A stretch of 64,000 nt of DNA, taken from Candidatus Fimenecus sp. (GTDB taxonomy: Bacteria > Bacillota > Clostridia > Oscillospirales > Acutalibacteraceae). Positions 5,439-18,983 of this stretch are shown here, one piece after another. Position numbers and translations under genes: made by a program. Location of the stretch: contig JAZQBM010000007.1 of NCBI GenBank assembly GCA_045545735.1, positions 112,295-176,294 of the forward strand, given 5' to 3'. Every line of letters starts with the position of its first letter. The first letter of the stretch is position 1. The notes beneath the pieces were generated by a model. It searched no databases. It saw only the letters and a list, made by a program, of their open reading frames with translations, and was not told the origin of the DNA.

Positions 5439-6332
5439 ATGGAAATTTTAATTATTGCTACAGTTTTAATCGCTATTGTTATAGCAGTCATCGTATCAAA
5501 CGTACGAATTGTACCTCAGGCAAATGCATATGTTGTTGAAAGACTTGGTGCGTATCATACAACATGGGATACAGGTCTTCACGTAAAAGTGCCGATTATT
5601 GACAGAGTTGCAAAAAGAGTAAGTCTTAAAGAAGCAGTTGTGGATTTCCCACCACAGCCGGTTATTACAAAAGATAACGTTACAATGTCAATTGACACGG
5701 TTGTGTTCTACCGTATAATCGACCCTAAACTTTACACATATGGTGTTGAAAGACCAATGATGGCTATCGAAAATCTTACAGCAACAACACTTCGTAATAT
5801 TATCGGTGATATGGAACTTGACGCAACTCTTACTTCAAGAGATGTAATTAACTCAAAAATCACAACAGTCCTTGACGAAGCAACAGATGCTTGGGGTATT
5901 AAGATTAACCGTGTTGAACTTAAGAACATTATGCCTCCAAAAGAAATCCAGGATTCAATGGAAAAACAGATGAAAGCTGAACGTGAACGCCGTGAAAAGA
6001 TTTTGCAGGCTGAAGGTGAAAAGAAAGCCGCAATCCTTGTTGCTGAAGGTGAAAAGGAATCTGCAATTCTTCGTGCTGACGCTGTTAAAGAATCTAAAAT
6101 CCGTGAGGCAGAAGGTGAAGCTGCTGCAATCATCAAGATTCAGGAGGCAACTGCTGCCGGTATCGAAATGATTAACAAGGTAAATCCAAGTCAGGAATTT
6201 ATCAGCATTAAAGCACTTGAATCTTTTGAAAAGGCTGCTGATGGTAAGGCTACAAAGATTATTATTCCTTCTGAAATTCAAGGACTTGCAGGTCTTGCAA
6301 CATCCCTTACAGAATTAGCAAAGAAAGACTAA
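5439..6332 (+). CDS. SPFH/band-7 (stomatin/slipin-like) protein
   Basis: N-terminal TM segment, an SPFH core (VVERLGAYHTTWDTGLHVKVPIIDRV...TKDNV...YRIIDP) and an Ala/Glu-rich coiled-coil tail. Confidence 0.9.
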   Translation: MEILIIATVLIAIVIAVIVSNVRIVPQANAYVVERLGAYHTTWDTGLHVKVPIIDRVAKRVSLKEAVVDFPPQPVITKDNVTMSIDTVVFYRIIDPKLYTYGVERPMMAIENLTATTLRNIIGDMELDATLTSRDVINSKITTVLDEATDAWGIKINRVELKNIMPPKEIQDSMEKQMKAERERREKILQAEGEKKAAILVAEGEKESAILRADAVKESKIREAEGEAAAIIKIQEATAAGIEMINKVNPSQEFISIKALESFEKAADGKATKIIIPSEIQGLAGLATSLTELAKKD

Positions 6333-6351
6333 AATTCAAAAATAACGATAG

Positions 6352-6381
6352 GGCGGAAGCTTCGGTTTCCGCCTTATTTTT
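6352..6381 (+). terminator. Rho-independent terminator
   Basis: ggcggaagc-ttcg-gtttccgcc followed by ttattttta. Confidence 0.8.
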
Positions 6382-6551
6382 ATGCTAAAAATTTTTTAAA
6401 TTGTTAAAAAATAAACAAAATTATTCAAAAGTGTTTGCTATATGAATGAAAAATAAAAAAATAGGCGATTTAGACAACGAAAATAGTAAAAATTGTTGAT
6501 TAAAGTCGAGAAAACAAGAAAAAATCGTGTTCATATTTTGTTCAAATGTGC

Positions 6552-6581
6552 TTGACAAGTAGTACTGTAATAAGGTAAAAT
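6552..6581 (+). promoter_or_regulatory. Candidate promoter of the surface-protein operon
   Basis: TTGACA (6552-6557), an 18-nt spacer, then TAAAAT (6576-6581). It follows a long A/T-rich tract. Confidence 0.45.
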
Positions 6582-6640
6582 ATAATATCTATAATAGGAT
6601 TACTATTTATAGCCATCTTCATTTTTAGGAGGGTACTGTT

Positions 6641-7462
6641 TTGGCAGTATTTAACATTAAAAACGGCAATGACTACATAGAGTCATATTACAATAAAAAT
6701 ACGGGTTTTGAAATCGGTTGTTACACCGTAAAAGAAATGAAAGCCCTTTACCCCGACGGCGGTATTCGTGTTGTGGGGCAGGTGGCTTGCGGTAAAGACC
6801 AAATCGGCACAATCGTTTCAAATGAGATTGAAGAAATCGTCTACAAGCCAACTACTTCCGCAAGATACAAGACTGTTGGTTATGTCGAACTTGAATCAGG
6901 TTCGTTTATCGCAGTGAAAAAGGACAATCTTTTAGCAATAATTCTTTTGTTCCTTGTTGGTATTCTTGCTCTTGCAGGTTTGATTGCAGGTCTTTCATAT
7001 GTTATAAGCACAAGCGGTGAACCTGATGAAACCACAACAACACCAAATTATCTTGATGTTAATCAGCAACAGGGCTTAGGCGAACTCGATTTACCTGAAA
7101 AGGTTGAAGATATGGGTTCAAAGAGCGTTACAATGAATGGTATTGCTCAGATTAACTTTAAAGCAGGGCAGGTTGAGCAGAATTTCATTCTCTCAAACTC
7201 TGAAAAGAACAAAGATATCTGCTTTGTTGTATTCACAATTTATCTTGACAATAACGAAAACGGCGTAATTGATGCGGCTGACGAAACACTTTATCAGTCA
7301 GGACTTGTTCAACCGGGATATTCAGTTTCAAGATTTAACATTTCTCGTTCTTTAGAGGCAGGCGAATATAAAGCAATTGTTCATCAGCAACCATATTCAT
7401 TTGACCAGGCAAGAACACCACTCAACAACTTTGTTGTTAAAACAGACCTTATTGTAAAATAA
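6641..7462 (+). CDS. Bitopic membrane protein, unknown function (first gene of surface operon)
   Basis: TTG start 8 nt after AGGAGG. About 95 aa cytoplasmic N-domain, TM segment LLAIILLFLVGILALAGLIAGLSYVI, a Thr-rich linker, then an extracytoplasmic beta-rich domain of about 140 aa. Confidence 0.65.
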   Translation: MAVFNIKNGNDYIESYYNKNTGFEIGCYTVKEMKALYPDGGIRVVGQVACGKDQIGTIVSNEIEEIVYKPTTSARYKTVGYVELESGSFIAVKKDNLLAIILLFLVGILALAGLIAGLSYVISTSGEPDETTTTPNYLDVNQQQGLGELDLPEKVEDMGSKSVTMNGIAQINFKAGQVEQNFILSNSEKNKDICFVVFTIYLDNNENGVIDAADETLYQSGLVQPGYSVSRFNISRSLEAGEYKAIVHQQPYSFDQARTPLNNFVVKTDLIVK

Positions 7463-7501
7463 CTTACTTTATATAGATTAAAAACAGAAAGGAAGAAGAG
7501 C

Positions 7502-10500
7502 ATGAAGAAAAAATTATCTTCCAAAAAGTGCATAGCGCTCATATTGGCTGTTGTGATGATTATTACATCAGTTCCACTTATGATGGTCGGCGCAGTTACA
7601 ATAGGTGCTTACGACCCTGCACCATATTGGGGTGATGACCCTACAGATAAGTATGGTGCAATTAACACTAACTTTGTAGCTACACTTAATACTGATGGTA
7701 GTGTTGATATTTCATTCCCAAACGCTAATGCACAGAAAACATATAACGGTAGTGCTGATAAAACTATCGATAAGTATGTTTTCACACTTACAAAGTTGCA
7801 GGAGGACGGAACACGAAAAGAAATTTATTCTGAAGTGTTTACTGCTGCTCAGGTTGCAACAGGTACAGAGGGTGCTAAATATCCTAATAATATTTATTAC
7901 GGACCGGGCGGACTTGAATCACTTCCCGACTATGATGTGCAGTCCACATACGACGTAGCAATTATGGCAATAGATAGTGACGGTTGGTTCTCTGATAAAA
8001 TCCATACTCTTTTGACAGATACACCATATTACGACATCTCTGCAGACTTTTCACCAAATGAAACTTGGGTAGCCCGTGAAATGCTTCTTTTTGAGGGCGC
8101 GGGTAGTGCAGATATTAATGCAGAAGACCAAGGTAGCAGTACAACTGCTGACATTGACTACAAAATCTATTCGGGTTCGGCACTTGACACTAACGGTGCG
8201 TTTGCAGAAACAGGTTATGAAAAGAGCCAATCATACCGTTTCTGGATTAACTCAGCATATGACGGAACACCATATAGCGTGCAAACCACTTGGAGCCGTT
8301 CTCACTATAACTTTGAAAATGCAGAAGAAGCATGGTTCTATGTTGACTTTTCTCGTGTTGATTTTGCACAAGTAGCGTTTTCTTTGACAGCAAACGAAAA
8401 GAGATTTGTTCACTGGAAGAGTGGTAGTGAAGATAAGACTTGGTCAAGATACGGTGACCTTTTTTCTACAAAGTCAGTTGCTGGGGTAAATACAGGCGTT
8501 AAAGGTGATATTTACATTCAAAATGCTGATGGCCTTTGGGAAGAAACCACAATGACCGACGGTTATCTTACAGACCTTGCAGGTTATGAGGGATTTATCC
8601 GTATTCCAATTGAATACTTTGTATTACAGACAGACCAGTATATTAATGCAAGAAATACAGTAAGTACTGATTGGGATAAGAATGAGACAGGACTTACAAA
8701 TTATGCTAACTCGCTTCTTTTCCGTCAGGATAGCAGTAGTGGAATTATACTTGAACTTGAAGATGGCACACAAAGAACATCAACAGCTGTTACAATGACT
8801 TTTGATATAAATGACAGCACAGAGAATAAAGATGTATATCAAGTTTTAGTAAATCCAAAAGGCACGCCTGTTACAGATGCTTTAATTATCTATGACAGGT
8901 TTGAAAAGTTTCAAACAGGTGCACTTTTTTGGGAAGAAGAATATACACGTGGTACAGGTAAACAACTCCACACAGGAACAACTGTTACTGAAACAGCAAA
9001 CGCTGATGGTAAAATAACATATAAGATTAATGATGGCATAAAAGCTATTGAAGACCTTTGCTCTGCTGGTATTGAGGTTGCAAATTGGTCAGCAGACTCT
9101 GTTACTAAGAGTTTTTATATTGACCAGGTTATGTTCTGCCAGTGGGCAGAGGGTGCAACATTTAACGATGATGGTTCTGTTGCAACAACATCTTCAGTTA
9201 AATTCCCTGACGAAGGTGGCGATTTCGCAGGTGATTTAGGTAAAAAAATTGCAGGATATTATGACCGAACTGTTGAAGTTCCAAAGGCCGTTGCAAATTA
9301 CATTACAGAATATGTTGGTAAAACACCTTCTCTTGATGATGTTAATGCACTTGAAATGATTAATGAAATCATACTTACTTATCGCCAGTGTTTCCCAACA
9401 GTTTTATCAACAGATAATGATACAGCAACATTAGAAAAGGCAATTACTTATCTTAATACATTGGGTTATACAGATGCTTACAATAGATATGTAGCTGCAA
9501 AAACATTTATTGAAACATATATAAATCTGGGTGACACAGCAAGAAACTACAACGCAGTTATAGCTTTCGAATCAGGTGTTGAACTTTTACCTGACCCTGA
9601 ATTTGCCAATTATAATGACGAAGAACTTAAAGCTGAACTTGAACAGTTAATGGCTCTTTATAAATCTTTCAACTTGAGCCATTTCGAAATTCTTGGTGCT
9701 GAGGCAGAAAACAAGTTTACTGAACTTTATAGCATTATGATGGGTGAAGAGGTAAAGACTGGTTATTCAATTGGTGGTTACCCATATATTCCGTTTAATG
9801 ATTTTGAAAAGAATATTAGTGGTTATAATGCAAACTACTCACTTGGACAATTAAGTTTGCAATATTATGATGATTCGCCTAGAGTAGGAAACAAAGATTT
9901 AAGACCTACAGACGTGAACAACACAAAAAATCTAGTTACTTATGTTACTCCTGACATTATTCCACAGTCAGGACAGAACTGGATTGGTAATGCAAAAGCT
10001 GTTGGTTGGTCTGTTGCGGACTATCGTGCGACAGCAGATAATCTTTTGTCTGATTCCAATGAAATTTTTGATACGTCCGATTATTTTGGAAGAATGGACG
10101 CAGAAATTTCAAATAGTGGATTTGCAGGTTCACAGGGTGTGCAGATTAACCTTGATGGCGACATTACAACACTTGACGCTGATGATAATCCTAAATTTGC
10201 AACCGTTTCAACAACATATAAAGGTCAGAATGTAAACACTTGGACAGAACTACAAGGCCTTAATCTTGCGGCTCTTCAACTTACAGATACTTATGCTGAC
10301 GGAACAACTGCAAAAGATAATGAGCGTTACGGAACGACTTCAACAGGCGAACAGGTAACACCAAACTCGTTTGTTATGTATGTTGACTTCAGTGAAGTTA
10401 CAAATATAGCAATGAATATTAAGTTTATTCTTAATAACGGGTCAGGAACTGATGTAAACTGTTATTTCTGTGGTGGTAGTGAAACAGCAACACCAACAAT

Positions 10501-12844
10501 TTATGTTCTTGACGAAAACGGTGAATGGACAGATGTTCAGATTGCTGTTTCTGCAATTGATACTTCAAGTACATCTTTTGCTGCGGGCCTTTGTTCAATT
10601 GCTTCTGCGGGAACACCTCTTGAAGGTTATAAAGGATTTATCCGTATTCCACTTTCAATGTTCCGTATTCCAAAGCGTGACGGTTTAGAAGAAAACTATT
10701 TAATCCTTGAAAACAACCTTAATAATTATACAATTGCACAGGCAAAAGTTTCTTTCTGGGATTATGATACAGAAGATAAGAATATCGGTACAGAAATAAA
10801 CATTGACGCTATGGGCTTTACTTATGACCCTAACTGCGCAACCCGTATTCTTACAACAAGAGATGCAATCTTAAACCAGCTTAATAGCGACAATGGTCTT
10901 TCAACAACTGCAGGTACTAACATCAAGAATATGGACGAATATTTTGGTGTTAAGACAAACGACTCAGTTAATTTTGAAAAAATGGTTGCTGAACTTGACC
11001 CATATGAAGGCAAAGACGCTTTTGTAACTGCATACAATAATGCTAAAACAGCATATGATAAACTTTCCTTCTATCAAAAAGGTCTTGACGAAATTAAACA
11101 TAGTTATGATGATATTCTCATAGGAAAATATCGTGCTTTGGCTGATAATAATGGTGCAAATTACGAAACATTAATGGCTCAAGAGCCATGGGTTGCAAAA
11201 TATGCAACAGCAAGTGAGTTGTTGACAGACCTTAATGCACTTGATTCAAAAGCAACAAGTTTTGATATAACAAAAGACGAAAATGCACTCACAAAGCCTT
11301 ATAATACTGAAGATGGTACGATTACTTATACTGATTTAGGTATTGCAGATAAGGCGGCGGCAGAAGCTATAGTTGAAATGTATGAAAAAGGCTATCGCAG
11401 ATTGAGTGGTACTGAAAAAACAAATCTTTCGGCAGACGACCTTACAAAACTTGAGAATGCATATGCGGCAGCAAAACGATTACTTCTTCTTGAAGACTAT
11501 ATTACAGATATGAATAGTTTCAAGAATGAAATCATTCAGATTTATACTGTAGGAACTGCTGAACCGGACGTTAGAATGGTTTCTTATGCAAATCCTGACT
11601 TGCTTGAAGCTATTGACCATTACGAAGATATGAGCGTTTTCGCAAAGCAAATGCTCAGCACAACTAAGGATACAGCAAATGCTGGTTATCCTAATATGTA
11701 TGCAGCGGCTGAAGCAATCTACGATAACTCTCATACAATTACAATGTCAATTGGCACAGCAATTGATGGTGGTGTTCTCGTATTTGAAGAAAGAATGCAT
11801 ACTTGTGCAACAGATGTAGCAGAGAAAATTAGAACAAGAACAGTTCTTGATGATGCAACACTCAATGAAATTGAGTATTGTTTAGGTCAAACAGAAAGTT
11901 TCTTGCAGAGATATGCTCAGGTTGACGAAATCAACGTTGCATACCACGAACTTGCTGATTTACTTCCTGTTGCAGACATTGCATCAGTTGACAGTTCAAA
12001 TGCAGAACTCACAAAGATTACACTCAATAATGATTCAGCGGAAACAATGAAATGTACCGCGTACATTGATTTGAGTTATATCGCAACAAGACTTAACAGA
12101 AGCGTTGACCTTTATGCACAGTCAAGCCTTAAATGGACTCAGACAGGTGGTTCAACATACAACGCTTTTGAAGATTTGATGTATAACAGTGCTACGGCTG
12201 AAAGTCTTGCAGACTATCAAAATGCAGACGGAATAGTTACAGCCTTGGTTGGTTCTTATACTAACGGAAATTCAGCAAGTCTTGAAAAATATCCGTATGA
12301 AATCAGCGTTGATGCAACTGAGGCTGCAAAAGTGCCGACAGGTGCAACTTACACAGGCAAGGTTACATTCTATGCAGTTGATTCTGCTCTTGTTGCGGAA
12401 AAAACTGCTGATGGTACAGATGTTTCAACAGTACTTGCGGATGCAGAGAATGTTCTTGAAGTAATAGAAGTTGATGTTGAGTTCCAGTCAACAAACGGAA
12501 CAGACCCAATCATTTATGAGGTTGAAATCCCTGCAAAAGTCCAGGTTGCTTGGGATACTACCGATGCAGTAGATGTTTCATATTCAGTTGAAGCAACTCT
12601 TGGTAGCAACACACTTTCAGTAGGTGTAAGTGGAACTGATAAACTTATCAATGATGATACAAGAGTTACTTACGAATTAGCTTACTCAAAGGCTAATTTT
12701 GTCACGGAAACATTTACAGGCGACGTAGCAACTGGAACAAAACCAACCAATGCACCAAGCATTACAATTAAAGATTGGGATAGCGTTCCGGTTGGCGTAT
12801 ATAGTACACAGTTGACTTATACAGTCGACGTAACAAGTTCTTAA
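7502..12844 (+). CDS. Giant secreted protein (1780 aa), unknown function; C-terminal about 130 aa homologous to the downstream small paralogues
   Basis: Uninterrupted 5.3-kb ORF with RBS GGAAGAAGAG and signal peptide MKKKLSSKKCIALILAVVMIITSVPLMMVGA. Contains an internally duplicated module (motifs YVDFS.V and L.GY.GFIRIP at two places). Confidence 0.85.
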   Translation: MKKKLSSKKCIALILAVVMIITSVPLMMVGAVTIGAYDPAPYWGDDPTDKYGAINTNFVATLNTDGSVDISFPNANAQKTYNGSADKTIDKYVFTLTKLQEDGTRKEIYSEVFTAAQVATGTEGAKYPNNIYYGPGGLESLPDYDVQSTYDVAIMAIDSDGWFSDKIHTLLTDTPYYDISADFSPNETWVAREMLLFEGAGSADINAEDQGSSTTADIDYKIYSGSALDTNGAFAETGYEKSQSYRFWINSAYDGTPYSVQTTWSRSHYNFENAEEAWFYVDFSRVDFAQVAFSLTANEKRFVHWKSGSEDKTWSRYGDLFSTKSVAGVNTGVKGDIYIQNADGLWEETTMTDGYLTDLAGYEGFIRIPIEYFVLQTDQYINARNTVSTDWDKNETGLTNYANSLLFRQDSSSGIILELEDGTQRTSTAVTMTFDINDSTENKDVYQVLVNPKGTPVTDALIIYDRFEKFQTGALFWEEEYTRGTGKQLHTGTTVTETANADGKITYKINDGIKAIEDLCSAGIEVANWSADSVTKSFYIDQVMFCQWAEGATFNDDGSVATTSSVKFPDEGGDFAGDLGKKIAGYYDRTVEVPKAVANYITEYVGKTPSLDDVNALEMINEIILTYRQCFPTVLSTDNDTATLEKAITYLNTLGYTDAYNRYVAAKTFIETYINLGDTARNYNAVIAFESGVELLPDPEFANYNDEELKAELEQLMALYKSFNLSHFEILGAEAENKFTELYSIMMGEEVKTGYSIGGYPYIPFNDFEKNISGYNANYSLGQLSLQYYDDSPRVGNKDLRPTDVNNTKNLVTYVTPDIIPQSGQNWIGNAKAVGWSVADYRATADNLLSDSNEIFDTSDYFGRMDAEISNSGFAGSQGVQINLDGDITTLDADDNPKFATVSTTYKGQNVNTWTELQGLNLAALQLTDTYADGTTAKDNERYGTTSTGEQVTPNSFVMYVDFSEVTNIAMNIKFILNNGSGTDVNCYFCGGSETATPTIYVLDENGEWTDVQIAVSAIDTSSTSFAAGLCSIASAGTPLEGYKGFIRIPLSMFRIPKRDGLEENYLILENNLNNYTIAQAKVSFWDYDTEDKNIGTEINIDAMGFTYDPNCATRILTTRDAILNQLNSDNGLSTTAGTNIKNMDEYFGVKTNDSVNFEKMVAELDPYEGKDAFVTAYNNAKTAYDKLSFYQKGLDEIKHSYDDILIGKYRALADNNGANYETLMAQEPWVAKYATASELLTDLNALDSKATSFDITKDENALTKPYNTEDGTITYTDLGIADKAAAEAIVEMYEKGYRRLSGTEKTNLSADDLTKLENAYAAAKRLLLLEDYITDMNSFKNEIIQIYTVGTAEPDVRMVSYANPDLLEAIDHYEDMSVFAKQMLSTTKDTANAGYPNMYAAAEAIYDNSHTITMSIGTAIDGGVLVFEERMHTCATDVAEKIRTRTVLDDATLNEIEYCLGQTESFLQRYAQVDEINVAYHELADLLPVADIASVDSSNAELTKITLNNDSAETMKCTAYIDLSYIATRLNRSVDLYAQSSLKWTQTGGSTYNAFEDLMYNSATAESLADYQNADGIVTALVGSYTNGNSASLEKYPYEISVDATEAAKVPTGATYTGKVTFYAVDSALVAEKTADGTDVSTVLADAENVLEVIEVDVEFQSTNGTDPIIYEVEIPAKVQVAWDTTDAVDVSYSVEATLGSNTLSVGVSGTDKLINDDTRVTYELAYSKANFVTETFTGDVATGTKPTNAPSITIKDWDSVPVGVYSTQLTYTVDVTSS

Positions 12845-12864
12845 TAAGGGAAGGAGATGGTTAA

Positions 12865-13314
12865 ATGAAAAAAATCTTTTCGGCAGGCTTGGCAGTTGTA
12901 ATGTTTATTCTTTGCATTACACCCGTATTCGCTGAAAGTCAGTCAATGGAAATTTCCACAAAGGCTGACAGAGCAGAATACGAATTGTCTTACCCTGCAG
13001 ACATTGAAATTCCATGGCAGACAACAGCTATGGGAATCGGTGAAGTAAAAGCTGAAAAAATGCTTATTGAACCGGGTAAAATGGTAGCGGTTTCAATTTC
13101 TTCACATAACGATTTTAACTTGGTAAACGAAGCAGACAGCACAAAAGCTATTGCATACAGTTTATTAAGTGAAGACATCTCTTTCTTCCCTGGTGATTAC
13201 GGTGAAAGCTTCACTCTATCAGTAGAGGTTGAAGATAATGAATGGCTTCACGCCGCAAGCGGTAAACACAGTGATATTTTAACATTCACTGCTGAATACA
13301 CTGACGCGGTTTAA
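12865..13314 (+). CDS. Small secreted paralogue 1 (most divergent)
   Basis: Signal peptide ...ITPVFA/E. Shares YELSYPADIEIPW ... HSDILTFTAEY with the family. Confidence 0.8.
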   Translation: MKKIFSAGLAVVMFILCITPVFAESQSMEISTKADRAEYELSYPADIEIPWQTTAMGIGEVKAEKMLIEPGKMVAVSISSHNDFNLVNEADSTKAIAYSLLSEDISFFPGDYGESFTLSVEVEDNEWLHAASGKHSDILTFTAEYTDAV

Positions 13315-13352
13315 ATAGTATTTTTAATCTTTATATAAAGGAGAAAACAAGC

Positions 13353-13856
13353 ATGAAAAAGATTTTATCACTTGCAATGGCACTTGTTATGATAATGGCT
13401 GTTATGGTTCCTGCTTTTGCAGTAGAACTTAATGCAAATCCTGATAGTGCTGATGTAATTATCAACACAGACACATTAAAAGATACTGACGGCGACGGTA
13501 AGGGCGACACAGATGCAGAAGAATACACAGTTACAATTCCTGCAGATACAACAATCCCTTGGGGCCAGGAAACAACCGACGTTTCTTATAAAGTTGAATC
13601 TCACCTCAAGAGAAACGGTAATGTTGTAGTTATGGTTACAGGTGCCGGAGTTATGAAAACAACTGACGGTGCTTACGAAATTCCTTACACACTTACGGGT
13701 GAGGGCGTAGCATTCAGAGCAGAGGGTGTTCCTACAATTTACCCTGCAGCAACAAAAGCAGTTACAGTTACAATTTCTGCAGATGATTGGAATTCAGCAG
13801 TTGTTGAAGAATATAAAGATATTCTCACATATACAGCAGAAATTGAAAGAGCATGA
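13353..13856 (+). CDS. Small secreted paralogue 2
   Basis: Signal peptide MKKILSLAMALVMIMAVMVPAFA. Family motifs YTVTIPADTTIPW and EYKDILTYTAE. Confidence 0.85.
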   Translation: MKKILSLAMALVMIMAVMVPAFAVELNANPDSADVIINTDTLKDTDGDGKGDTDAEEYTVTIPADTTIPWGQETTDVSYKVESHLKRNGNVVVMVTGAGVMKTTDGAYEIPYTLTGEGVAFRAEGVPTIYPAATKAVTVTISADDWNSAVVEEYKDILTYTAEIERA

Positions 13857-13896
13857 GCTTAATTTATAAATTATTCTGAAAAGGAGACATATAATT

Positions 13897-14382
13897 ATGA
13901 AAAAAGTTATTTCTTTAGTAATGGCACTCGTTATGACGATGGCTGTTATGGTTCCTGCTTTTGCGGCTGAACTTAATGCGGCAACACCATCAGGTGAAGT
14001 AATCGTTAAAACAAGCACAGAACTTGAAGGTGGCGGAAGTGCTGAACGTTATGTGGTTACTATTCCGGCTAGTCCAACAACAATGGCTTGGGGTACAGCT
14101 TCAAAAGACCTTGTTTATTCAGTTGAATCACATCTTGCTTGGGGCAAGGCAGTTTCAGTTTCAGTTTCAGGTAACGGCATTATGACATACAAGCCTGACG
14201 CAAATAATACACTTGAACTTGTATACAAACTTGGTGGCGAAACAGCATTTACAGCTGACACTCCTACAATCTATCCTGCAGCAGATAAAACAATTACAGT
14301 TGCAGTTTCAGCAGACGCATGGAATGGTGCAGTAATCGGTGAGTATTCAGATACTCTTACATTTACAGCAAGCGTTGCTTAA
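13897..14382 (+). CDS. Small secreted paralogue 3
   Basis: Signal peptide MKKVISLVMALVMTMAVMVPAFA. Family motifs YVVTIPASPTTMAW and EYSDTLTFTASVA. Confidence 0.85.
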   Translation: MKKVISLVMALVMTMAVMVPAFAAELNAATPSGEVIVKTSTELEGGGSAERYVVTIPASPTTMAWGTASKDLVYSVESHLAWGKAVSVSVSGNGIMTYKPDANNTLELVYKLGGETAFTADTPTIYPAADKTITVAVSADAWNGAVIGEYSDTLTFTASVA

Positions 14383-14410
14383 TTTGATTACGAAATAAGG
14401 AGAATAAATT

Positions 14411-14890
14411 ATGAAAAAGATTTTATCACTTGCTTTGGCACTTGTTATGATGATGGCAATCTGCGTTCCTGCATTTGCAGGTACACTTGATGCATCAACA
14501 CCATCAAGCGACGTTCCGATAAAAACAGATATTAGTTCAATTACAACTGATGGTACTTATTCAGTTACAATCCCTGCAACAATGGATATCAAATGGAATG
14601 CAACAAAAACAGATTTTAACTACTCAGTAACAAGCCACCTTAAAGCAGGCAAAGCAGTAAATGTTACAGTTGCACAGAAAAACGCAGCAATGGTTGCAGC
14701 TGATGCAAATAATACTAGTACTATTGAATATTCACTTACAGGTACACTTAACGCAACAACAAAGAATCCTGTAGTTACAAACGCAGGTTTTGACTTCTCA
14801 GTTATAATTGACCAGTCAGAATTCGATGAAGCAGCAATTGCTGAGTATTCAGACAAAGTTACATTTACAGCAACAGTTGTAAATGCATAA
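14411..14890 (+). CDS. Small secreted paralogue 4
   Basis: Signal peptide MKKILSLALALVMMMAICVPAFA. Family motifs YSVTIPATMDIKW and EYSDKVTFTATV. Confidence 0.85.
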   Translation: MKKILSLALALVMMMAICVPAFAGTLDASTPSSDVPIKTDISSITTDGTYSVTIPATMDIKWNATKTDFNYSVTSHLKAGKAVNVTVAQKNAAMVAADANNTSTIEYSLTGTLNATTKNPVVTNAGFDFSVIIDQSEFDEAAIAEYSDKVTFTATVVNA

Positions 14891-14908
14891 GAAAGGGAGT
14901 ATTAAATA

Positions 14909-15388
14909 ATGAAAAAAGTTATTTCTATTGTTCTTGCACTTGTAATGATGATGGTAATTTGCGTTCCCGCATTTGCAGGTGAAATTAAAGAAACAGGTGC
15001 ACAATCAGGCACATCAACAGTTAAAACAGATACAAGCACAATGGGTTCAGGTACTTACACAGTAACTTACCCTGCTGAAATTTCTATTCCTTGGAATCAG
15101 ACAAAAAATGAAACTTACACAGTTTCAACACAGTTGCTCGTAGGTAAGCAGGTAACAGTTGCTGTTGCAGACGCAACAACTACAACTCACACAGGTGCTA
15201 TGACAGCTACTGGTACAACAGATACACTTGAATACACAGTTTCAGGTGATACAACTGTTGTTTACACAGGTGCCATGAATGAAACAGAAACACTTACATT
15301 TACAGTTACTGACTGGAACAAGACAATTGCTGAATATACAGGTACTGTTACATTTACAGCAACACTTGCTGATGTTACAACAGTATAA
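14909..15388 (+). CDS. Small secreted paralogue 5
   Basis: Signal peptide MKKVISIVLALVMMMVICVPAFA. Family motifs YTVTYPAEISIPW and EYTGTVTFTATL. Confidence 0.85.
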   Translation: MKKVISIVLALVMMMVICVPAFAGEIKETGAQSGTSTVKTDTSTMGSGTYTVTYPAEISIPWNQTKNETYTVSTQLLVGKQVTVAVADATTTTHTGAMTATGTTDTLEYTVSGDTTVVYTGAMNETETLTFTVTDWNKTIAEYTGTVTFTATLADVTTV

Positions 15389-15407
15389 TTTAAAGGGGTA
15401 ATTTACA

Positions 15408-15914
15408 ATGAAAAAGATTATTTCTATCGCACTTGCTCTTGTTATGATGATGGCAATTTGCGTTCCTGCATTTGCAGAAGTAGTAAATACTGATGGGGTA
15501 GCAGGTAATACAACAAATGTTGAAACATCATACACAGAAGCAACTGACACATCATACACAGTTACAATCCCTGCAACAATTTCAATTCCTTGGGGCAATA
15601 CAAACCCACAGAATGCAACATATACAGTTAAATCTCAACTTCTTATTGGTGCAAAACTTAATGTTTCAGCAACAGCAAATAACAATGGTACAATGACAGC
15701 TACAGGCACAAACGACGAACTTGAATTTACAGTTACAGGTGGAGATGTAGTAACATTTGATGCAGTTAATGTTGCAACAACAACAGCACCTGGTGTAACA
15801 GACGGCGAAAACGTAAAGGTTGCTATCTCTTCTTTTGACGGTAAAGCTGTTGGCGAATACACAGGTACAATCACATACACAGTTGAGTATGTTGCACCTA
15901 CAACTACTCCGTAA
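15408..15914 (+). CDS. Small secreted paralogue 6
   Basis: Signal peptide MKKIISIALALVMMMAICVPAFA. Family motifs YTVTIPATISIPW and EYTGTITYTVEY. Confidence 0.85.
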   Translation: MKKIISIALALVMMMAICVPAFAEVVNTDGVAGNTTNVETSYTEATDTSYTVTIPATISIPWGNTNPQNATYTVKSQLLIGAKLNVSATANNNGTMTATGTNDELEFTVTGGDVVTFDAVNVATTTAPGVTDGENVKVAISSFDGKAVGEYTGTITYTVEYVAPTTTP

Positions 15915-15951
15915 TTATTTATTTTCGAAATAGTTAAGGAGGTGGATTTCA

Positions 15952-17952
15952 TTGAAAAAAGCAATTAGTATCATTGTGGCTTTAGCTATGGTGCTTGTTA
16001 TGGCAGTGCCTTCGTTTGCCGGAAACACTGTTATTTCAACATCAGTGCCTTATGAGCATTCAGTTACCGTTACTTATAATGACGGCGGTTATGTGCTTGT
16101 AAATGGTAAGCTTTGCCCTGACGGTACACAATTTAATATCAACAGATTTGGTGAAATCGACCTTGGCGTAATTTACGAAAACGGCTATCACCTTGAAAGC
16201 GTTGAAGTAAATGGCGTTGACGTTACAGAACAATTTGTCAGTGGCAATCTTAAAATTGCAAATATTATTGATGACGTCTTTGTTGAAGTTACTTTTGAAA
16301 AATGTTCTTCTGACCCTGACGATAAGTGCGGCAAGGTTGATATGGAAGGTACAGTTTATCTTGGCGACAAAGAACTCGTTGGTGCTGAGCTCAGTTTTGA
16401 TTTTGGTAGTGTAACGGCAGAAACTGATAAAGACGGCAGATATTTTGTTGAAGATATTTTTGACGGAAAACATATTGTTACGATTTCAAAGGATGGCGAA
16501 GTTCTTTCTAATACATCTTTTGTTATTGAAAGAGCAGATGTTAAAGAGGTAACTCTTACAACAGCACCTGACGGAACACAGGTTGTACTTGTTCCTGTTG
16601 ATGCAGAAAAGATTTATCTTGATTTTAACATTGCTGATAACGATAAAAATGGAATTCCGGATAAAGACCCTGATGATACAGACCCTGGTGACCCTGATGT
16701 TCCTGAATTTAAAGACCCTGATGGTGACCCCGACATCCCAAATCCGAACGTAACTCCGGACCCTGATGATGACGGTGACGGAATTCTTGATAAGGATGAC
16801 CCTGACCACCCAAATCGTGATACAGATGACGACGGTTTACCGGACGCAATTGACCCTGATGACGATAACGACGGCCTTGATGACGACGAGGATTCAGATG
16901 ACGACGGCGACGGAATCCCTGACAAAGATGACCCAAATCATCCTGACCGCGACACAGATGGTGATGGTGTTCCTGACAGACGTGACCCTGACGATGATGA
17001 CGACGGTATTCTTGATACAGACGATACTGACGACGACAACGACGGCACTCCTGATAAGGACGACCCTGACCACCCTGACCGCGACACAGACGGTGACGGT
17101 ATTCCGGACAGCGTTGACGATGATGATGACAACGATGGTCTTCCTGACGGAAACGAGGATTTAAACAATATTCCTGACCCTGATGATGACGGCGACGGTA
17201 TTCCCGATAAAGATGACACTGACCATCCTGACCGCGACACAGACGATGACGGCGTTCCCGACAGAGTCGATGATGATGACGATAATGATGGTGTAAAGGA
17301 TGACGACGATTCAGATGATGATAACGACGGCACTCCTGACAAGGACGACCCGGACCACCCTGACCGCGATACAGATGGTGACGGTAAACCTGACAGAATC
17401 GACGACGATGACGACAATGACGGCATTGATGACGATAGGGACTCAGATGACGACGACGATGGAATTCCTGATGTAAATGACCCCGATAGTCCTGAACGCG
17501 ACACGGATGGTGACGGTACACCTGATAGCGAAGACGATGATGACGACAACGACGGTCTTCCTGACGGACCACTTTATGATGGTGACGAGGATGATGACGG
17601 CGATGATGATAAAAAGGATACAGACGGCGACGGTATTCTTGATAAGGATGACGACGATGACGATAATGATGGTATCCCTGATTCAAAAGACCCGGATTCA
17701 GATGGTGACGGACATATTGATGATTATGACGGAACACCTGACGGTGACGATGACAACGATGGCGTTATAATCACAATCGGCGGACCTAAAAAGGATGTTC
17801 CTATCATTCCTATTCCCGATACTTTCGTAGAGTTCTTTGAGAATCCGATTATAATAGGTTCCTTAATGGGATTAAGCTTGTTCTTCCTTATCCTTATTAT
17901 CTTCAAACGCAAAAAGGATGAAGAAGACGAACGCGAAATCATTGTTGAATAA
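15952..17952 (+). CDS. Membrane-anchored surface protein with thrombospondin-type-3-like Asp-rich calcium-binding repeats
   Basis: TTG start after AAGGAGGTGG and a family-like signal peptide MKKAISIIVALAMVLVMAVPSFA. Two N-terminal beta domains, the second resembling a carboxypeptidase-regulatory-like domain (DKDGRYFVEDIFDGKHIVTISKDGEV). About 380 aa of DxDxDGxxD repeats. C-terminal TM segment IIIGSLMGLSLFFLILIIF followed by KRKKDEEDE. Confidence 0.85.
   Translation: MKKAISIIVALAMVLVMAVPSFAGNTVISTSVPYEHSVTVTYNDGGYVLVNGKLCPDGTQFNINRFGEIDLGVIYENGYHLESVEVNGVDVTEQFVSGNLKIANIIDDVFVEVTFEKCSSDPDDKCGKVDMEGTVYLGDKELVGAELSFDFGSVTAETDKDGRYFVEDIFDGKHIVTISKDGEVLSNTSFVIERADVKEVTLTTAPDGTQVVLVPVDAEKIYLDFNIADNDKNGIPDKDPDDTDPGDPDVPEFKDPDGDPDIPNPNVTPDPDDDGDGILDKDDPDHPNRDTDDDGLPDAIDPDDDNDGLDDDEDSDDDGDGIPDKDDPNHPDRDTDGDGVPDRRDPDDDDDGILDTDDTDDDNDGTPDKDDPDHPDRDTDGDGIPDSVDDDDDNDGLPDGNEDLNNIPDPDDDGDGIPDKDDTDHPDRDTDDDGVPDRVDDDDDNDGVKDDDDSDDDNDGTPDKDDPDHPDRDTDGDGKPDRIDDDDDNDGIDDDRDSDDDDDGIPDVNDPDSPERDTDGDGTPDSEDDDDDNDGLPDGPLYDGDEDDDGDDDKKDTDGDGILDKDDDDDDNDGIPDSKDPDSDGDGHIDDYDGTPDGDDDNDGVIITIGGPKKDVPIIPIPDTFVEFFENPIIIGSLMGLSLFFLILIIFKRKKDEEDEREIIVE
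16630..17765 (+). repeat. Coding tandem repeats (super-repeat about 130-150 nt, six copies containing HP[DN]RDTD[GD]DG)
   Basis: Near-identical blocks such as gaccaccctgaccgcgacacagacggtgacgg recur at about 16936, 17068, 17221 and 17354. GAY-rich codons generate long spurious antisense ORFs. Confidence 0.9.
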
Positions 17953-17969
17953 AGATTTGACCAAAATTA

Positions 17970-17996
17970 AAAGCCACTCAATCGAGTGGCTTTTTT
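17970..17996 (+). terminator. Rho-independent terminator of the surface operon
   Basis: aaagccactc-aatc-gagtggcttt plus TTTT. Confidence 0.85.
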
Positions 17997-18030
17997 ATGT
18001 GTTTTTGTGTGGCAAATTGGAGTTTGTTTA

Positions 18031-18086
18031 ACAAAGTGCAAAATGTAAAACGCAAAGTGCAAAATGTCGGAACTGCGTTCCGTTAA
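18031..18086 (-). repeat. Intergenic motif locus A: hairpin followed by 2 x CATTTTGCACTTTG (read on - strand)
   Basis: CAAAGTGCAAAATG at 18032-18045 and 18053-18066, with hairpin cggaac-tgc-gttccg at 18068-18082. Confidence 0.8.
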
Positions 18087-18120
18087 AACAATTAAATAAA
18101 CGATACTTTACAGAATAATA

Positions 18121-18153
18121 TAAAAACAACCCATCTAAATAAATAGATGGGTT
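18121..18153 (-). terminator. Rho-independent terminator of the M15 peptidase gene
   Basis: aacccatcta / tagatgggtt stem followed on the - strand by gttttta. Confidence 0.65.
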
Positions 18154-18158
18154 AAATT

Positions 18159-18983
18159 TTATACTGCTTTCAAATATTCTTCCAAACAAAGATTATTCGA
18201 TTTCATTTCGTTTGCAACATCAATGCCAACATAACGCCAGTGCCAAGGCTGATAAATTATTCCCGTAATTTCCGTCTTATCTTCGGGATAACGAAGAATA
18301 AATCCATATTTATGAGCATTATTAACAAGCCATTTATATTCGTCAGTTGCCGAGAATCCTGCACTTGCACTTATAATATCAACGCTGAGCCCTGCACCGT
18401 TTTCACTACAGCCTGCAGGCTCAACTCTTTTTTCTGCATTAGTTTTTGCTTCGTCTTCTGTCATTCCTTGCAAAACAAAAGCCTGTACTTTGTTTTCATA
18501 GTTTGTTTGTTGACGTGAATAACTACAGTATGCTGAATATGGTGTCAATACATAACCTTGTTTCAATGCATCTGCATACATAAGTTTGTATGCATCAGAA
18601 ACTCTTGTGTCTGCAGTGACTGAACTACCGTCAACAACGGGGGCAAGTGTGGGACTGTACGTTTTACCTAATGGATATTTTTTGCTGATAAGGGTTATTG
18701 CCCAGTTTTCACTATTAAGGACTTCAACAGGGTTGTAATTGTCCCATTTAACAGGCGGTTTTGTTGTAGTTTCAGGTAAAGTTGTGCTCTCTTCCTCCGT
18801 AGTGGATTCTTCCGGTGTAGGGGGAAGTGTGGTGCTTTCCTCGGTTGTGGTTTCTGTTGTAATTTCAACTTCGTTGTAGTTACCGTCACGACAGAAAACT
18901 GCAAATAAAACCAACAGCAAACCAAGAATAGCAATCAAGGCAATAAGCAAGGCAAATCTTATTTTTAACTGTCTTTTTTTCAT
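18159..18983 (-). CDS. VanY/LdcB-type (M15B) D,D- or L,D-carboxypeptidase homologue, membrane-anchored
   Basis: KWLVNNAHKYGFILRYPEDKTEITGIIYQPWHWRYVG is typical of the family. N-terminal TM anchor and Thr/Glu linker. ATG 18983 (MKKRQ, RBS AAGGA) is preferred over 19019. Confidence 0.8.
   Translation of the reverse strand: MKKRQLKIRFALLIALIAILGLLLVLFAVFCRDGNYNEVEITTETTTEESTTLPPTPEESTTEEESTTLPETTTKPPVKWDNYNPVEVLNSENWAITLISKKYPLGKTYSPTLAPVVDGSSVTADTRVSDAYKLMYADALKQGYVLTPYSAYCSYSRQQTNYENKVQAFVLQGMTEDEAKTNAEKRVEPAGCSENGAGLSVDIISASAGFSATDEYKWLVNNAHKYGFILRYPEDKTEITGIIYQPWHWRYVGIDVANEMKSNNLCLEEYLKAV

What the first reader, a model, noticed from the sequence alone, without database searches (positions are those of the whole stretch)
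12452..15914. One fold-sized domain occurs seven times: six tandem stand-alone secreted paralogues plus the C-terminus of the 1780-aa giant
My manual alignment of the six small proteins and residues about 1651-1780 of the giant (nt 12452-12841) shows the same ordered motifs.
- An N-terminal strand: [VI]x[VI]xT.
- Y-x-[VL]-x-[IY]-P-A-x(3-4)-[IMV]-x-W. Instances are YTVTIPADTTIPW, YVVTIPASPTTMAW, YSVTIPATMDIKW, YTVTYPAEISIPW, YTVTIPATISIPW, YELSYPADIEIPW and, in the giant, YEVEIPAKVQVAW.
- Y-x-V-x-[ST]-x-L, then V-x-V-x-V, then [EY]-[YF]-x-[LV].
- A D-W or equivalent position.
- A C-terminal strand EY..[DT][LVI]T[FY]T[AV]. Instances are EYKDILTYTAE, EYSDTLTFTAS, EYSDKVTFTAT, EYTGTVTFTAT, EYTGTITYTVE, HSDILTFTAE and, in the giant, VYSTQLTYTVD.

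The mature small proteins consist of essentially just this domain.

A large effector or adhesin carrying the same module as a set of small subunits is the hallmark of systems where the module mediates co-assembly or common anchoring. Examples are tip adhesins with pilin domains, and large versus small WxL proteins. The terminal YTGT[VI]T[FY]T strand resembles my recollection of the terminal WxL motif (..LTW.L..) with W replaced by F/Y.
Basis: partly seen in the sequence, partly recalled or inferred. Interest (0 to 1): 0.8.

Follow-up and report, generated by a model that had tools for sequence, protein, structure and literature searches.

The report
Pilin-like surface assembly operon in Clostridia
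Six small secreted proteins and the tail of a 1780-residue protein share one uncatalogued domain whose predicted fold resembles Gram-negative pilus subunits. They sit in a conserved operon of gut Clostridia that probably builds a membrane-tethered surface fibre or complex without the usual pilus assembly machinery.

Summary
Genes at 12865-15914 encode six signal-peptide proteins whose mature part is one ~135-aa beta domain. The last ~125 aa of the 1780-aa protein (7502-12844) carry the same domain: 44 bits (E 9e-10) against a profile of the six, 72 bits against the family profile.

The domain matches no Pfam, NCBIfam or PDB sequence family. An exhaustive search finds ~900 clusters. Named sources are uncultured Clostridia/Oscillospiraceae and Ruminococcus albus 7. 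Copies are stand-alone or fused to giants, BspA-LRR or ubiquitin.

A confident AF2 model (pLDDT 97.5) resembles chaperone-usher pilins most, with Csu/SCPU pilins among the closest. Scores are weak (TM ~0.5). Profile-profile comparison with SCPU is only suggestive (probability 37-56%).

The genes form a conserved operon: bitopic membrane protein U, the giant, 3-7 pilin-like genes in colinear paralogue order, and the C-terminally membrane-anchored protein A.

Every copy has a conserved N-terminal strand ([VI]-x-T). A similar signature ends U and begins mature A.

Best reading: a beta-strand-complementation fibre or complex on a monoderm cell, without chaperone or usher. Its architecture parallels WxL clusters and TasA/TapA, but it is not a WxL member. 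The mechanism is inferred, not shown.

The parts
6552..6581 (+). Promoter-like site upstream of the operon (TTGACA-18-TAAAAT).
   Evidence: This is the best sigma-70-type match in 6200-18300, at 11 of 12 positions. It lies between the terminator of the preceding gene (6347-6378) and the start of U. It is a consensus match only.
6641..7462 (+). U: a 273-aa bitopic membrane protein. It has an N-terminal cytoplasmic part, one TM helix (aa ~88-124) and a ~140-aa extracellular beta domain. The last strand, NFVVKTDLI (aa 263-271, nt 7427-7453), resembles the pilin N-terminal strand.
   Evidence: U is the first gene of the cassette in the window, L001-L004, L008, L009, L010 and R. albus 7. The hydrophobic segment is shown. 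In all five U orthologues scanned (window, L001, L008, L009, L010), the best match to the pilin N-terminal-strand PSSM is the extreme C-terminal strand, at 7.8-12.3 bits. There is no Pfam, NCBIfam or PDB sequence hit.
7502..12844 (+). Giant secreted protein (1780 aa, signal peptide). Its N-terminal ~1650 aa have no known family. It is the cargo of the system.
   Evidence: ORF. No Pfam, NCBIfam or PDB hit, even with a profile of 18 giants. Full-length homologues of 1635-1866 aa occupy the same operon position in other loci.
12452..12841 (+). C-terminal pilin-like domain of the giant (aa ~1651-1780; the profile match covers aa 1656-1778).
   Evidence: 44.4 bits with the six-protein profile and 72.3 bits with the family profile. 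The strand before the domain (VIEVDVEF) aligns with the N-terminal strand of the small proteins but lacks the conserved Thr.
12865..13314 (+). S1: the paralogue type that always follows the giant (149 aa). It has a short N-terminal strand, SMEISTKAD, at aa 27-35.
   Evidence: S1-type orthologues are first after the giant in the window, L001, L008, L009 and L010.
13353..13856 (+). S2: pilin-like paralogue (167 aa). N-terminal strand DVIINTDTL at aa 34-42, followed by an 18-aa Asp/Gly-rich linker.
13897..14382 (+). S3: pilin-like paralogue (161 aa). N-terminal strand EVIVKTSTE at aa 34-42. This is the protein that was modelled.
   Evidence: AF2 model with pLDDT 97.5 and pTM 0.83. Foldseek matches.
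14411..14890 (+). S4: pilin-like paralogue (159 aa).
14909..15388 (+). S5: pilin-like paralogue (159 aa).
15408..15914 (+). S6: the paralogue type that comes last before the anchor gene (168 aa). C-terminus ..YTVEYVAPTTTP.
   Evidence: Its best matches in L001 and L009 are the last small gene of those loci.
15952..17952 (+). A: a 666-aa protein. It has a signal peptide and a mature N-terminus NTVISTSVP (aa 25-33, nt 16024-16050). Beta domains follow, then 22 DxDxDGxxD motifs (aa 272-590, nt 16765-17721), a C-terminal TM helix (aa ~631-653) and a KRKKDEE tail.
   Evidence: Orthologues of 188-384 aa end the cassette in L001-L005, L009, L010, L011 and L012. The N-terminal [IML]-x-T-x-V-P-x-x-H motif is kept in all six aligned orthologues. 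The Asp-rich repeats match a TSP3-repeat OmpA-family protein (5wtl) and, weakly, thrombospondin-1.
17969..17994 (+). Intrinsic-terminator-like hairpin that closes the operon.
   Evidence: 11-bp stem with a T run, 17 nt after the stop of A. No strong hairpin (10 or more stem pairs) lies between 6641 and 17952 on the + strand; only weak 5-9 bp consensus matches do. Gaps between the nine genes are 18-40 nt, and each gene has a Shine-Dalgarno sequence.

Best explanation
The seven copies are one pilin-like Ig-type domain. It belongs to an uncatalogued family whose named sources are all Clostridia (Oscillospiraceae/Ruminococcaceae-type).

The nine genes 6641-17952 form one operon, a conserved cassette for a cell-surface assembly. 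The shared domain is the co-assembly module.

Proposed mechanism (inferred):
1. Subunits are exported by Sec.
2. Outside the membrane, the conserved N-terminal strand of one subunit pairs with the beta-sandwich of another (donor-strand complementation). This gives a fibre or stalk built from several specialised paralogues.
3. The giant joins through its C-terminal domain, with the S1 type next to it, and is displayed as cargo.
4. Cargo proteins encoded elsewhere (BspA-LRR or ubiquitin fusions) can join the same way.
5. The membrane end is provided by U and/or A. U has an N-terminal TM helix and an extracellular domain ending in a pilin-like strand. A has a pilin-like N-terminal segment, a variable stalk and a C-terminal TM helix. 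Either may act as anchor, terminator or nucleator.

No chaperone or usher is involved, which fits a cell without an outer membrane.
For: Shown:
- The seven copies are significantly related.
- The family has ~903 clusters at 50% identity. Among the 150 best-scoring cluster representatives, 124 are stand-alone proteins under 200 aa. In the 26 larger proteins the domain sits at the extreme C-terminus (giants, BspA-LRR, ubiquitin).
- The AF2 model has pLDDT 97.5. Roughly half of its 50 best PDB matches are chaperone-usher pilus subunits: CsuA/B 7zl4, CsuE pilin domain 6fjy, CfaB, CS17, PapG pilin domain, FimG, PapA, Caf1. TM is 0.4-0.52 and Foldseek probability mostly 0.8-1.0.
- The cassette U, giant, 3-7 small genes, A recurs in different genomic neighbourhoods. 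Giant-less versions occur on the R. albus 7 plasmid. A mislabelled faecal contig carries the end of a giant, seven small genes and an A-type protein.
- Paralogue types are colinear across loci, with S1 first and S6 last. This indicates specialised, non-redundant subunits.
- The genes form one transcription unit.
- The N-terminal strand is as conserved as the core: position 40 is V/I/L in 151/151 and position 42 is T in 137/151. The linker behind it varies from about 2 to 45 residues.
- All five scanned U orthologues have their best match to this strand motif at their very C-terminus. All six A orthologues keep [IML]-x-T-x-V-P at the mature N-terminus.
- The C-terminal halves of the family and of SCPU pilins align in register. 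Probability is 37-56%, P is 1e-4 to 4e-4, and the score exceeds 120/120 block shuffles.

Inferred:
- Strand complementation, by analogy with CU pilins, TasA/TapA and the AF2 prediction for WxL/WxLIP (PMC10599100).
Against: - No multimer model or experiment was possible, so no inter-subunit contact has been seen.
- The Foldseek E-values are weak (5e-3 to 5e-2) and TM is about 0.5.
- Sequence homology to SCPU is not established. Most of the hhalign score comes from the last 16 columns.
- The giants, LRR fusions and ubiquitin fusions also carry the strand ahead of the domain. In R. albus the strand is only 2 residues from the first core strand. The strand could therefore be an ordinary in-cis edge strand of a complete domain.
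- In the monomer model the strand is not assigned as beta yet has high pLDDT. I could not inspect coordinates to explain this.
- The A N-terminal motif is short, resembles mainly the S1 type, and does not score with the general strand PSSM.
- Whether the product is a long fibre or a small complex is unknown.
Confidence: 0.5

Rival explanations
1. WxL-like platform rather than a polymer. Each domain keeps its own N-terminal strand in cis but has a gap. A strand from a membrane protein fills that gap: the C-terminal strand of U or the N-terminus of A. Small and large proteins are thereby docked individually at the cell surface, and no fibre forms.
For: - The architecture is the same as in WxL clusters: small protein, large protein with a C-terminal domain, and a signal-peptide-to-TM partner. 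For those clusters AF2 predicts a partner strand completing the WxL sandwich next to its N-terminal strand (PMC10599100, PMC9772566).
- U and A carry strand-like motifs.
- Giants and fusions keep the strand ahead of the domain.
Against: - There are six to seven small genes but only one U and one A per operon, which makes one-to-one docking stoichiometrically odd.
- The colinear paralogue order suggests an ordered assembly.
- The fold is closest to polymerising pilins.
- No WxL, DUF916 or DUF3324 signal was found.
Confidence: 0.2
2. The domain is a complete, self-sufficient Ig-like module with no strand exchange. The six paralogues are independent secreted or surface binding proteins or variants. 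The giant merely shares a C-terminal module that binds a common ligand such as wall polysaccharide.
For: - The monomer AF2 model is very confident as a single chain.
- Generic Ig-like Pfam families give weak hits.
- The strand lies close to the core in R. albus members.
Against: - This reading does not explain the strict operon with two membrane proteins.
- It does not explain the conserved paralogue order.
- It does not explain the near-invariant Thr in a strand separated from the core by a linker of very variable length.
- It does not explain the same signature at the termini of U and A.
Confidence: 0.15
3. The domain is a divergent true WxL domain that binds peptidoglycan non-covalently.
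For: - The [LVI]-T-[FY]-T-[VA] end strand mimics the second WxL motif.
- There is an N-terminal strand plus an unstructured linker, as described for WxL (PMC9772566).
- The small and large arrangement is the same.
Against: - Pfam WxL (PF13731) does not hit any of 131 members, the family consensus or the window proteins.
- There is no Trp-x-Leu pair.
- The domain is ~135 aa against 160-190 aa for WxL.
- There is no DUF916/DUF3324 or LPXTG partner.
- The source is Clostridia, not Lactobacillales or Bacillales.
Confidence: 0.07
4. The cluster is phage-derived or is a spore-appendage locus.
For: - S2 gives a weak Pfam hit to a prophage tail-fibre N-terminal family (E 0.004, below cut-off).
- One homologous contig is deposited as 'Bacteriophage sp.'.
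Against: - That contig carries metA-like and prfB-like genes and no phage genes, so it is probably bacterial.
- Foldseek against viral models gives nothing informative.
- The window is chromosomal, with TopA, SMC and LeuRS.
- Signal peptides and TM anchors indicate Sec export to the cell surface.
Confidence: 0.03

Closest known systems
Archaic (sigma) chaperone-usher pili: Csu pili of Acinetobacter baumannii; SCPU domain, Pfam PF05229
   Same: - It is among the closest folds: CsuA/B 7zl4 and the CsuE pilin domain 6fjy rank 2-4 of the PDB matches, at TM 0.48.
- There is an N-terminal strand with alternating aliphatic residues.
- The C-terminal strand G-x-Y-x-D-T-L-x-[VF]-T-V aligns in register.
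- Several specialised small subunits are combined with a large protein whose C-terminal domain is the pilin domain, as in CsuE.
   Different: - No PapD-like chaperone and no usher are present in the cassette.
- The host is a monoderm Clostridia lineage.
- The Pfam SCPU model does not hit.
- The conserved disulfide of SCPU pilins is absent; the six window proteins have no Cys in their mature part.
- Two membrane-anchored partners take the place of the outer-membrane machinery.
- The cargo is ~1650 aa rather than a ~150-aa adhesin domain.
WxL (Csc) clusters of Lactobacillales and Bacillales: small WxL, large WxL, WxLIP (DUF916-DUF3324-TM)
   Same: - The small protein is essentially the domain alone. 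The large protein has the domain at its C-terminus behind host-binding domains.
- There is a partner with a signal peptide and a C-terminal TM helix.
- An N-terminal strand is joined by an unstructured linker.
- A predicted partner strand completes the sandwich (PMC9772566, PMC10599100).
- LRR cargo occurs in both systems.
   Different: - There is no sequence match to WxL, DUF916 or DUF3324.
- There are no Trp-x-Leu motifs.
- The cassette has 3-7 small paralogues instead of typically one.
- It has an extra N-terminally anchored protein, U.
- There is no LPXTG protein.
- It occurs in a different class of bacteria.
- Peptidoglycan binding is untested.
TasA/TapA biofilm fibres of Bacillus subtilis
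   Same: - These are chaperone- and usher-free donor-strand fibres on a monoderm cell.
- An accessory protein (TapA) supplies a strand that starts or anchors the fibre (titles and abstracts of PMC9674648 and PMC10151520, listed).
- This is the role proposed here for U or A.
   Different: - The fold and family are different: no TasA/Peptidase_M73 hit appeared in the Pfam scans.
- TasA is one major subunit, not a set of ordered paralogues.
- There is no giant cargo.
- A dedicated signal peptidase (SipW) belongs to that operon (own knowledge). None is present here.
Pam pili of Candidate Phyla Radiation bacteria (bioRxiv 10.64898/2026.03.03.709456)
   Same: This is a recently found Ig-fold, donor-strand-exchange pilus outside classical Gram-negative bacteria.
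   Different: The authors report it as CPR-exclusive, with operon-encoded chaperone-like and usher-like factors. I made no sequence comparison with the Pam proteins.

Membership tests
WxL domain (Pfam PF13731) | Match to the family profile. | tested here: not met
   No WxL hit for the six window proteins or the giant at E<=1, for 131 family members at E<=0.01, or for the family consensus at E<=10.
WxL domain (Pfam PF13731) | Two conserved Trp-x-Leu motifs on adjacent strands. | tested here: not met
   The only near-invariant Trp (column 65, 151/152) is followed by G-x. The C-terminal strand is [LVI]-T-[FY]-T-[VA], with F/Y in 152/152 and no Trp.
WxL domain (Pfam PF13731) | The domain makes up the mature small proteins and sits at the C-terminus of large proteins in one cluster. 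| tested here: met
   The published definition is in PMC9772566.
WxL domain (Pfam PF13731) | The cluster contains a DUF916-DUF3324-TM protein (WxLIP). | tested here: not met
   A has a signal peptide and a C-terminal TM helix but no DUF916 or DUF3324 hit at E<=1. It is analogous in layout only.
WxL domain (Pfam PF13731) | Non-covalent peptidoglycan binding. | not testable with these tools
   This needs recombinant protein and cell-wall binding assays.
SCPU / archaic chaperone-usher pilins (Pfam PF05229) | Match to the family profile. | tested here: not met
   No PF05229 or Fimbrial hit. A clean SCPU HMM against family sequences gives at best 15.8 bits.
SCPU / archaic chaperone-usher pilins (Pfam PF05229) | Remote homology by profile-profile comparison. 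| tested here: inconclusive
   hhalign gives probability 21% with a narrow CsuA/B alignment and 37-56% with 97 SCPU sequences, P 1e-4 to 4e-4. The native score of 28.2 exceeds the reversed profile (10.9) and 120/120 block shuffles (maximum 23.5). About 22 units come from the last 16 columns alone. Searches are void because of a contaminated alignment.
SCPU / archaic chaperone-usher pilins (Pfam PF05229) | Pilin-type Ig fold. | tested here: inconclusive
   CU pilins make up roughly half of the top 50 Foldseek PDB matches (Csu, CFA/I, CS17, Pap, Fim, Caf1). However, TM is 0.4-0.52 and E is 5e-3 or weaker. I could not inspect the model coordinates for an open groove.
SCPU / archaic chaperone-usher pilins (Pfam PF05229) | N-terminal donor strand used for polymerisation. 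| not testable with these tools
   A conserved N-terminal strand is present.
SCPU / archaic chaperone-usher pilins (Pfam PF05229) | Operon-encoded periplasmic chaperone and outer-membrane usher. | tested here: not met
   None of the nine operon proteins hits PapD_N, PapD_C or Usher. Related loci list no such Pfam families.
Sortase-dependent Gram-positive pili | C-terminal LPXTG sorting signal and a sortase in the locus. | tested here: not met
   There is no C-terminal LPXTG-like motif in any operon protein and no sortase among the operon genes.
TasA-type fibres | TasA/Peptidase_M73 family subunit. | tested here: not met
   No such Pfam hit in the window proteins or in 131 members.

The most novel reading that the evidence does not exclude
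Clostridia of the Oscillospiraceae type build a pilus from Csu/SCPU-like subunits by donor-strand exchange, with no chaperone and no usher.
- A membrane protein with a built-in pilin-like strand (U and/or A) starts or ends the fibre.
- The fibre is tipped by a ~1700-aa protein of unknown function.
- It can also take up cargo-fused subunits (BspA-LRR, a eukaryote-like ubiquitin) encoded elsewhere in the genome.

This would make it a modular display fibre. It would put chaperone-usher-type pilins in monoderm bacteria and might connect them to the WxL clusters of lactic acid bacteria.
Probability: 0.35. Interest if true: 0.85.

Novelty: new variant of a known kind. Interest (0 to 1): 0.72.

Why it matters
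Strand-complemented pili are best known from the chaperone-usher pathway of Gram-negative bacteria. Chaperone-free versions have been described for TasA, archaeal threads, bundling pili and cannulae, and CPR Pam pili.

A family of about 900 sequence clusters in abundant gut and rumen Clostridia with a CU-pilin-like fold, and with its own conserved four-part operon, would add a further assembly route.

It would also give functions to several protein families that currently have no annotation at all:
- the pilin-like domain;
- U;
- A;
- the ~1700-aa giants.

It would explain how these uncultured gut bacteria display very large proteins, leucine-rich-repeat proteins and a ubiquitin-like protein on their surface.

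Ruminococcus albus 7 carries a compact version on plasmid pRUMAL01, so the idea can be tested directly in a cultured organism.

Tried and rejected
1. **Shallow-alignment AF2 run.** A 38-sequence alignment gave a useless model (pLDDT 44). Only the 131-sequence alignment worked.

2. **PDB sequence searches with family profiles.** They returned only signal-peptide matches to Fab constructs.

3. **The search for related loci.** I used the look-up of encoding contigs instead.

4. **My error with the SCPU alignment.** The broad 'SCPU' alignment was picked by protein-id range. It accidentally included P0347-P0390, which are members of this very family returned. The resulting hhalign probability of 96% is void. 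I detected this and repeated the test cleanly.

5. **U ectodomain and A N-terminal region.** hhalign shows no relationship to the pilin family or to SCPU (probability below 1%).

6. **'Giants lack the N-terminal strand, like CU tip adhesins.'** Not upheld. Giants score low with the strand PSSM (-1 to 8.7 bits, against a median of 12.2 for small proteins). However, they do have a different strand at that position, h-x-V-x-[FY].

7. **General strand PSSM against the N-terminus of A.** It does not pick it out. The resemblance is to the S1 type only.

8. **Isopeptide or ester cross-links.** No invariant Lys, Asn, Asp, Gln or His pattern is present.

9. **Giant protein function.** Nothing was found in Pfam, NCBIfam or the PDB, even with an 18-sequence profile.

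10. **Viral fold library.** Nothing informative.

11. **Literature.** Seven full-text searches found no description of this family or cassette.

Full report
**Observation**

The ORF list confirms the giant at 7502-12844 (1780 aa, signal peptide). Six tandem genes follow: S1 12865-13314, S2 13353-13856, S3 13897-14382, S4 14411-14890, S5 14909-15388 and S6 15408-15914. Each encodes a 149-168-aa protein with a signal peptide.

Mature small proteins match each other in BLASTP down to 1e-30. Matches between small proteins and the giant are marginal. A profile built from the six hits one further ORF among the 653 ORFs of the window, the giant's C-terminus, with 44.4 bits and E 9e-10 for a nominal database of one million. 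A profile of 130 family members that excludes the giant gives 72.3 bits over giant residues 1656-1778.

**The family**

Neither Pfam nor NCBIfam recognises any of the nine proteins of the region. PDB sequence searches with family profiles return only signal-peptide matches.

A word-indexed search found 433 relatives, all unnamed or 'hypothetical'. The few source names are Clostridia or Ruminococcaceae/Oscillospiraceae MAGs. The exhaustive HMMER search over 1.84 billion cluster representatives found 903 at E<=1e-3 and 257 at E<=1e-10.

Of the best 150 representatives, 124 are stand-alone proteins under 200 aa. The other 26 carry the domain at the extreme C-terminus:
- giants of 1635-1866 aa;
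- BspA-type leucine-rich-repeat proteins (P0126, P0141, P0168);
- a secreted ubiquitin-domain protein (P0227).

None of 131 members hits a Pfam family consistently, and WxL, SCPU and Fimbrial are all absent. One named source is Candidatus Fimenecus. A tblastn search of plasmids found the family in the cultured Ruminococcus albus 7.

**Fold**

AF2 with a shallow alignment failed (pLDDT 44). With 131 sequences the S3 model reached pLDDT 97.5 and pTM 0.83. It shows nine strands and one short helix.

Roughly half of the 50 best Foldseek matches in the PDB are chaperone-usher pilus subunits. They include CsuA/B in the Csu pilus (7zl4), the pilin domain of CsuE (6fjy), CfaB, CS17, the PapG pilin domain, FimG, PapA and Caf1. 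The scores are modest: TM 0.4-0.52, E 5e-3 and weaker. Given how many Ig-like chains the PDB holds, the enrichment for pilus subunits is informative, but it establishes fold class, not homology. The viral library gave nothing.

**Sequence relationship to Csu/SCPU pilins**

I checked the CsuA/B sequence against 7zl4_A. Its C-terminus, QGDYKDTLLVTVNF, resembles the family consensus GEYSDTLTFTV.

hhalign of the family against close CsuA/B homologues gave probability 21% and P 1e-3. The C-terminal halves aligned in register.

A broader comparison gave 96%, but that result is void. My id-range selection had pulled in members of this very family, which I detected. The clean repeat with 97 SCPU sequences gives probability 37-56%, P 1e-4 to 4e-4 and score 28-31.

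Controls, against the native score of 28.2:

| Control | Score |
|---|---|
| Reversed profile | 10.9 |
| Column shuffles | 11.1 +/- 2.3 |
| 8-column block shuffles | 15.3 +/- 2.9 (maximum 23.5) |
| Last 16 columns kept, rest shuffled | 21.9 +/- 2.1 |

Most of the signal is therefore the terminal strand, and the remainder adds about three standard deviations. The result is suggestive, not proof. The invariant disulfide of SCPU pilins is absent here.

**The operon**

A strong terminator (6347-6378) ends the preceding Band_7 gene. The best promoter-like site lies at 6552-6581. No strong hairpin (10 or more stem pairs) occurs until the hairpin at 17969-17994. The nine genes are separated by 18-40 nt, and each has a Shine-Dalgarno sequence.

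The unit consists of three further components besides the small genes:
- **U** (6641-7462) is bitopic: one TM helix and a C-terminal extracellular beta domain.
- **The giant**, followed by S1-S6.
- **A** (15952-17952) has a signal peptide, beta domains, 22 DxDxDGxxD motifs, a C-terminal TM helix and a basic-acidic tail.

The same order recurs in near relatives (L001-L004). It also recurs in diverged loci with different neighbours: L008, L009 and L010, with a partial version in L005. In those loci U is 263-278 aa, the giant 1635-1866 aa, there are 3-7 small genes, and A is 322-346 aa.

R. albus 7 plasmid pRUMAL01 has a giant-less version. It contains a short U, four pilin-like genes, a ubiquitin fusion, and a 188-aa A-type protein. 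One of the pilin-like genes carries a C-terminal ~245-aa Gly-rich extension.

A faecal contig deposited as 'Bacteriophage sp.' carries the end of a giant, seven small genes and an A-type protein. Ordinary bacterial genes sit next to them.

Best-hit analysis shows colinear paralogue types. The S1 type always follows the giant, and the S6 type comes last in the loci that have one. The LRR fusion P0126 is a solitary gene elsewhere in its genome. The window itself is chromosomal.

**The N-terminal strand**

Over 152 small members, profile position 40 is V/I/L in 151/151 and position 42 is Thr in 137/151. That matches the conservation of the core positions P58, A59, W65, Y150 and T155.

The segment between this strand and the first core strand is highly variable:
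- 2 residues in R. albus;
- 7-18 residues in the window;
- about 45 proline-rich residues in L008.

A PSSM of the strand finds its best match at the extreme C-terminal strand in all five scanned U orthologues (7.8-12.3 bits). The background frequency of scores of at least 8 bits is 4.7e-4 per position. The R. albus U ends in a similar strand, NVETVLIAK.

The mature N-terminus of A keeps [IML]-x-T-x-V-P-x-x-H in six orthologues. It resembles the S1-type strand: compare MTIST in A of L005 with MTIST in S1 of L010. It does not score with the general PSSM.

Giants have a strand at the equivalent position without the Thr signature. LRR fusions retain the signature. Among ubiquitin fusions, P0227 retains it, while the R. 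albus ubiquitin fusion has the aromatic short-linker type of strand instead.

**Mechanism**

Four things are shown:
- a shared pilin-like module;
- a conserved operon with two membrane proteins;
- specialised paralogues in a fixed order;
- a conserved strand signature in all three protein classes.

The mechanism itself is inferred. Subunits would be joined by beta-strand complementation, as in chaperone-usher pili, TasA/TapA fibres, and the AF2 prediction for WxL with its partner WxLIP (PMC10599100). The giant and other fusion proteins would be displayed as cargo. U and/or A would tie the assembly to the membrane. The variable stalk of A would span the wall: Asp-rich calcium-type repeats in the window, a Pro/Thr-rich segment in L012, and short in other loci.

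I cannot decide between a long fibre and a short complex. I also cannot exclude that the strand stays in cis.

**Comparison with known systems**

- **Archaic Csu/SCPU chaperone-usher pilins.** By fold, this is the closest group. The system here lacks the chaperone, usher, disulfide and Pfam match.
- **WxL clusters.** By architecture, this is the closest system: small WxL, large WxL with the domain at its C-terminus, and a TM-anchored partner (PMC9772566, PMC10599100). None of the sequence-defined features of WxL is met.
- **TasA/TapA.** By logic, this is the monoderm precedent for chaperone-free donor-strand fibres (PMC9674648, PMC10151520, listed).

Seven full-text searches found no description of this family.

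**Verdict**

I classify it as a new variant of a known kind, strand-complemented surface assemblies. The mechanism is unverified but testable, and a cultured host is available.

Noticed in passing
window 16765-17721 (A, aa 272-590): There are 22 tandem DxDxDGxxD calcium-binding-type motifs, similar to thrombospondin type 3 repeats; Asp makes up 47% of the 375 residues aa 226-600. The orthologues have 0-1 such motif, and one orthologue (L012) has a Pro/Thr-rich stalk at a different position. G+C rises to 0.45 in this stretch. This looks like a lineage-specific expansion of the stalk.
   Followed up: partly
window 12865-15480 and 15952-16020 (signal peptides of S1-S6 and A): The signal peptide MKK..S..LA.VM..A.CVPAFA is among the most conserved parts of the family across 150 cluster representatives: M13 in 126/150, P20 in 121, F22 in 144, A23 in 148. 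A shares ..VPSFA. This could point to a dedicated processing or targeting step. I did not examine it further.
   Followed up: no
P0227; L011 11107-11847 (R. albus 7 pRUMAL01, RUMAL_RS21475): Secreted proteins consist of a signal peptide, a eukaryote-like ubiquitin domain (Pfam ubiquitin, E 2e-26) and the pilin-like domain. The P0227 cluster has 118 member sequences from many gut samples. This suggests ubiquitin displayed on a bacterial surface structure.
   Followed up: partly
L011 6567-12945 (R. albus 7 plasmid pRUMAL01): This is a compact cassette in a cultured strain: a short U, pilin-like genes and an A-type anchor. One pilin-like gene has the domain at the N-terminus followed by a ~245-aa Gly-rich extension. 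A PI-PLC-domain gene sits in the middle. A 60-aa ORF is a chimera of a pilin N-terminus and the U C-terminus. A dockerin protein is encoded next door.
   Followed up: partly
L012 (GenBank MT836423.1, 'UNVERIFIED: Bacteriophage sp.'): The 10.5-kb record holds the end of a giant, seven tandem pilin-like genes and an A-type anchor. Bacterial metA-like and prfB-like genes (identified by eye) follow. It is very probably bacterial DNA, not a phage.
   Followed up: yes
window 7502-12451 (giant, aa ~278-370 and ~960-1050): The giant contains two similar modules, each ending in G-Y-[EK]-G-F-I-R-I-P. Both are conserved across 18 giants (for example G364, R367 and P369; Y1043, G1045 and P1050). Long helical stretches separate them. 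No known family matches them.
   Followed up: partly
window 20469-21644 and 21777-23804: Two ORFs of 391 and 675 aa have no Pfam hit. They are syntenic downstream of the cassette in the near relatives L001-L004 but not in the diverged loci.
   Followed up: no
L008 13568-14290: This pilin-like paralogue has a ~45-residue proline-rich spacer between the N-terminal strand and the core domain. It is the longest linker seen.
   Followed up: no
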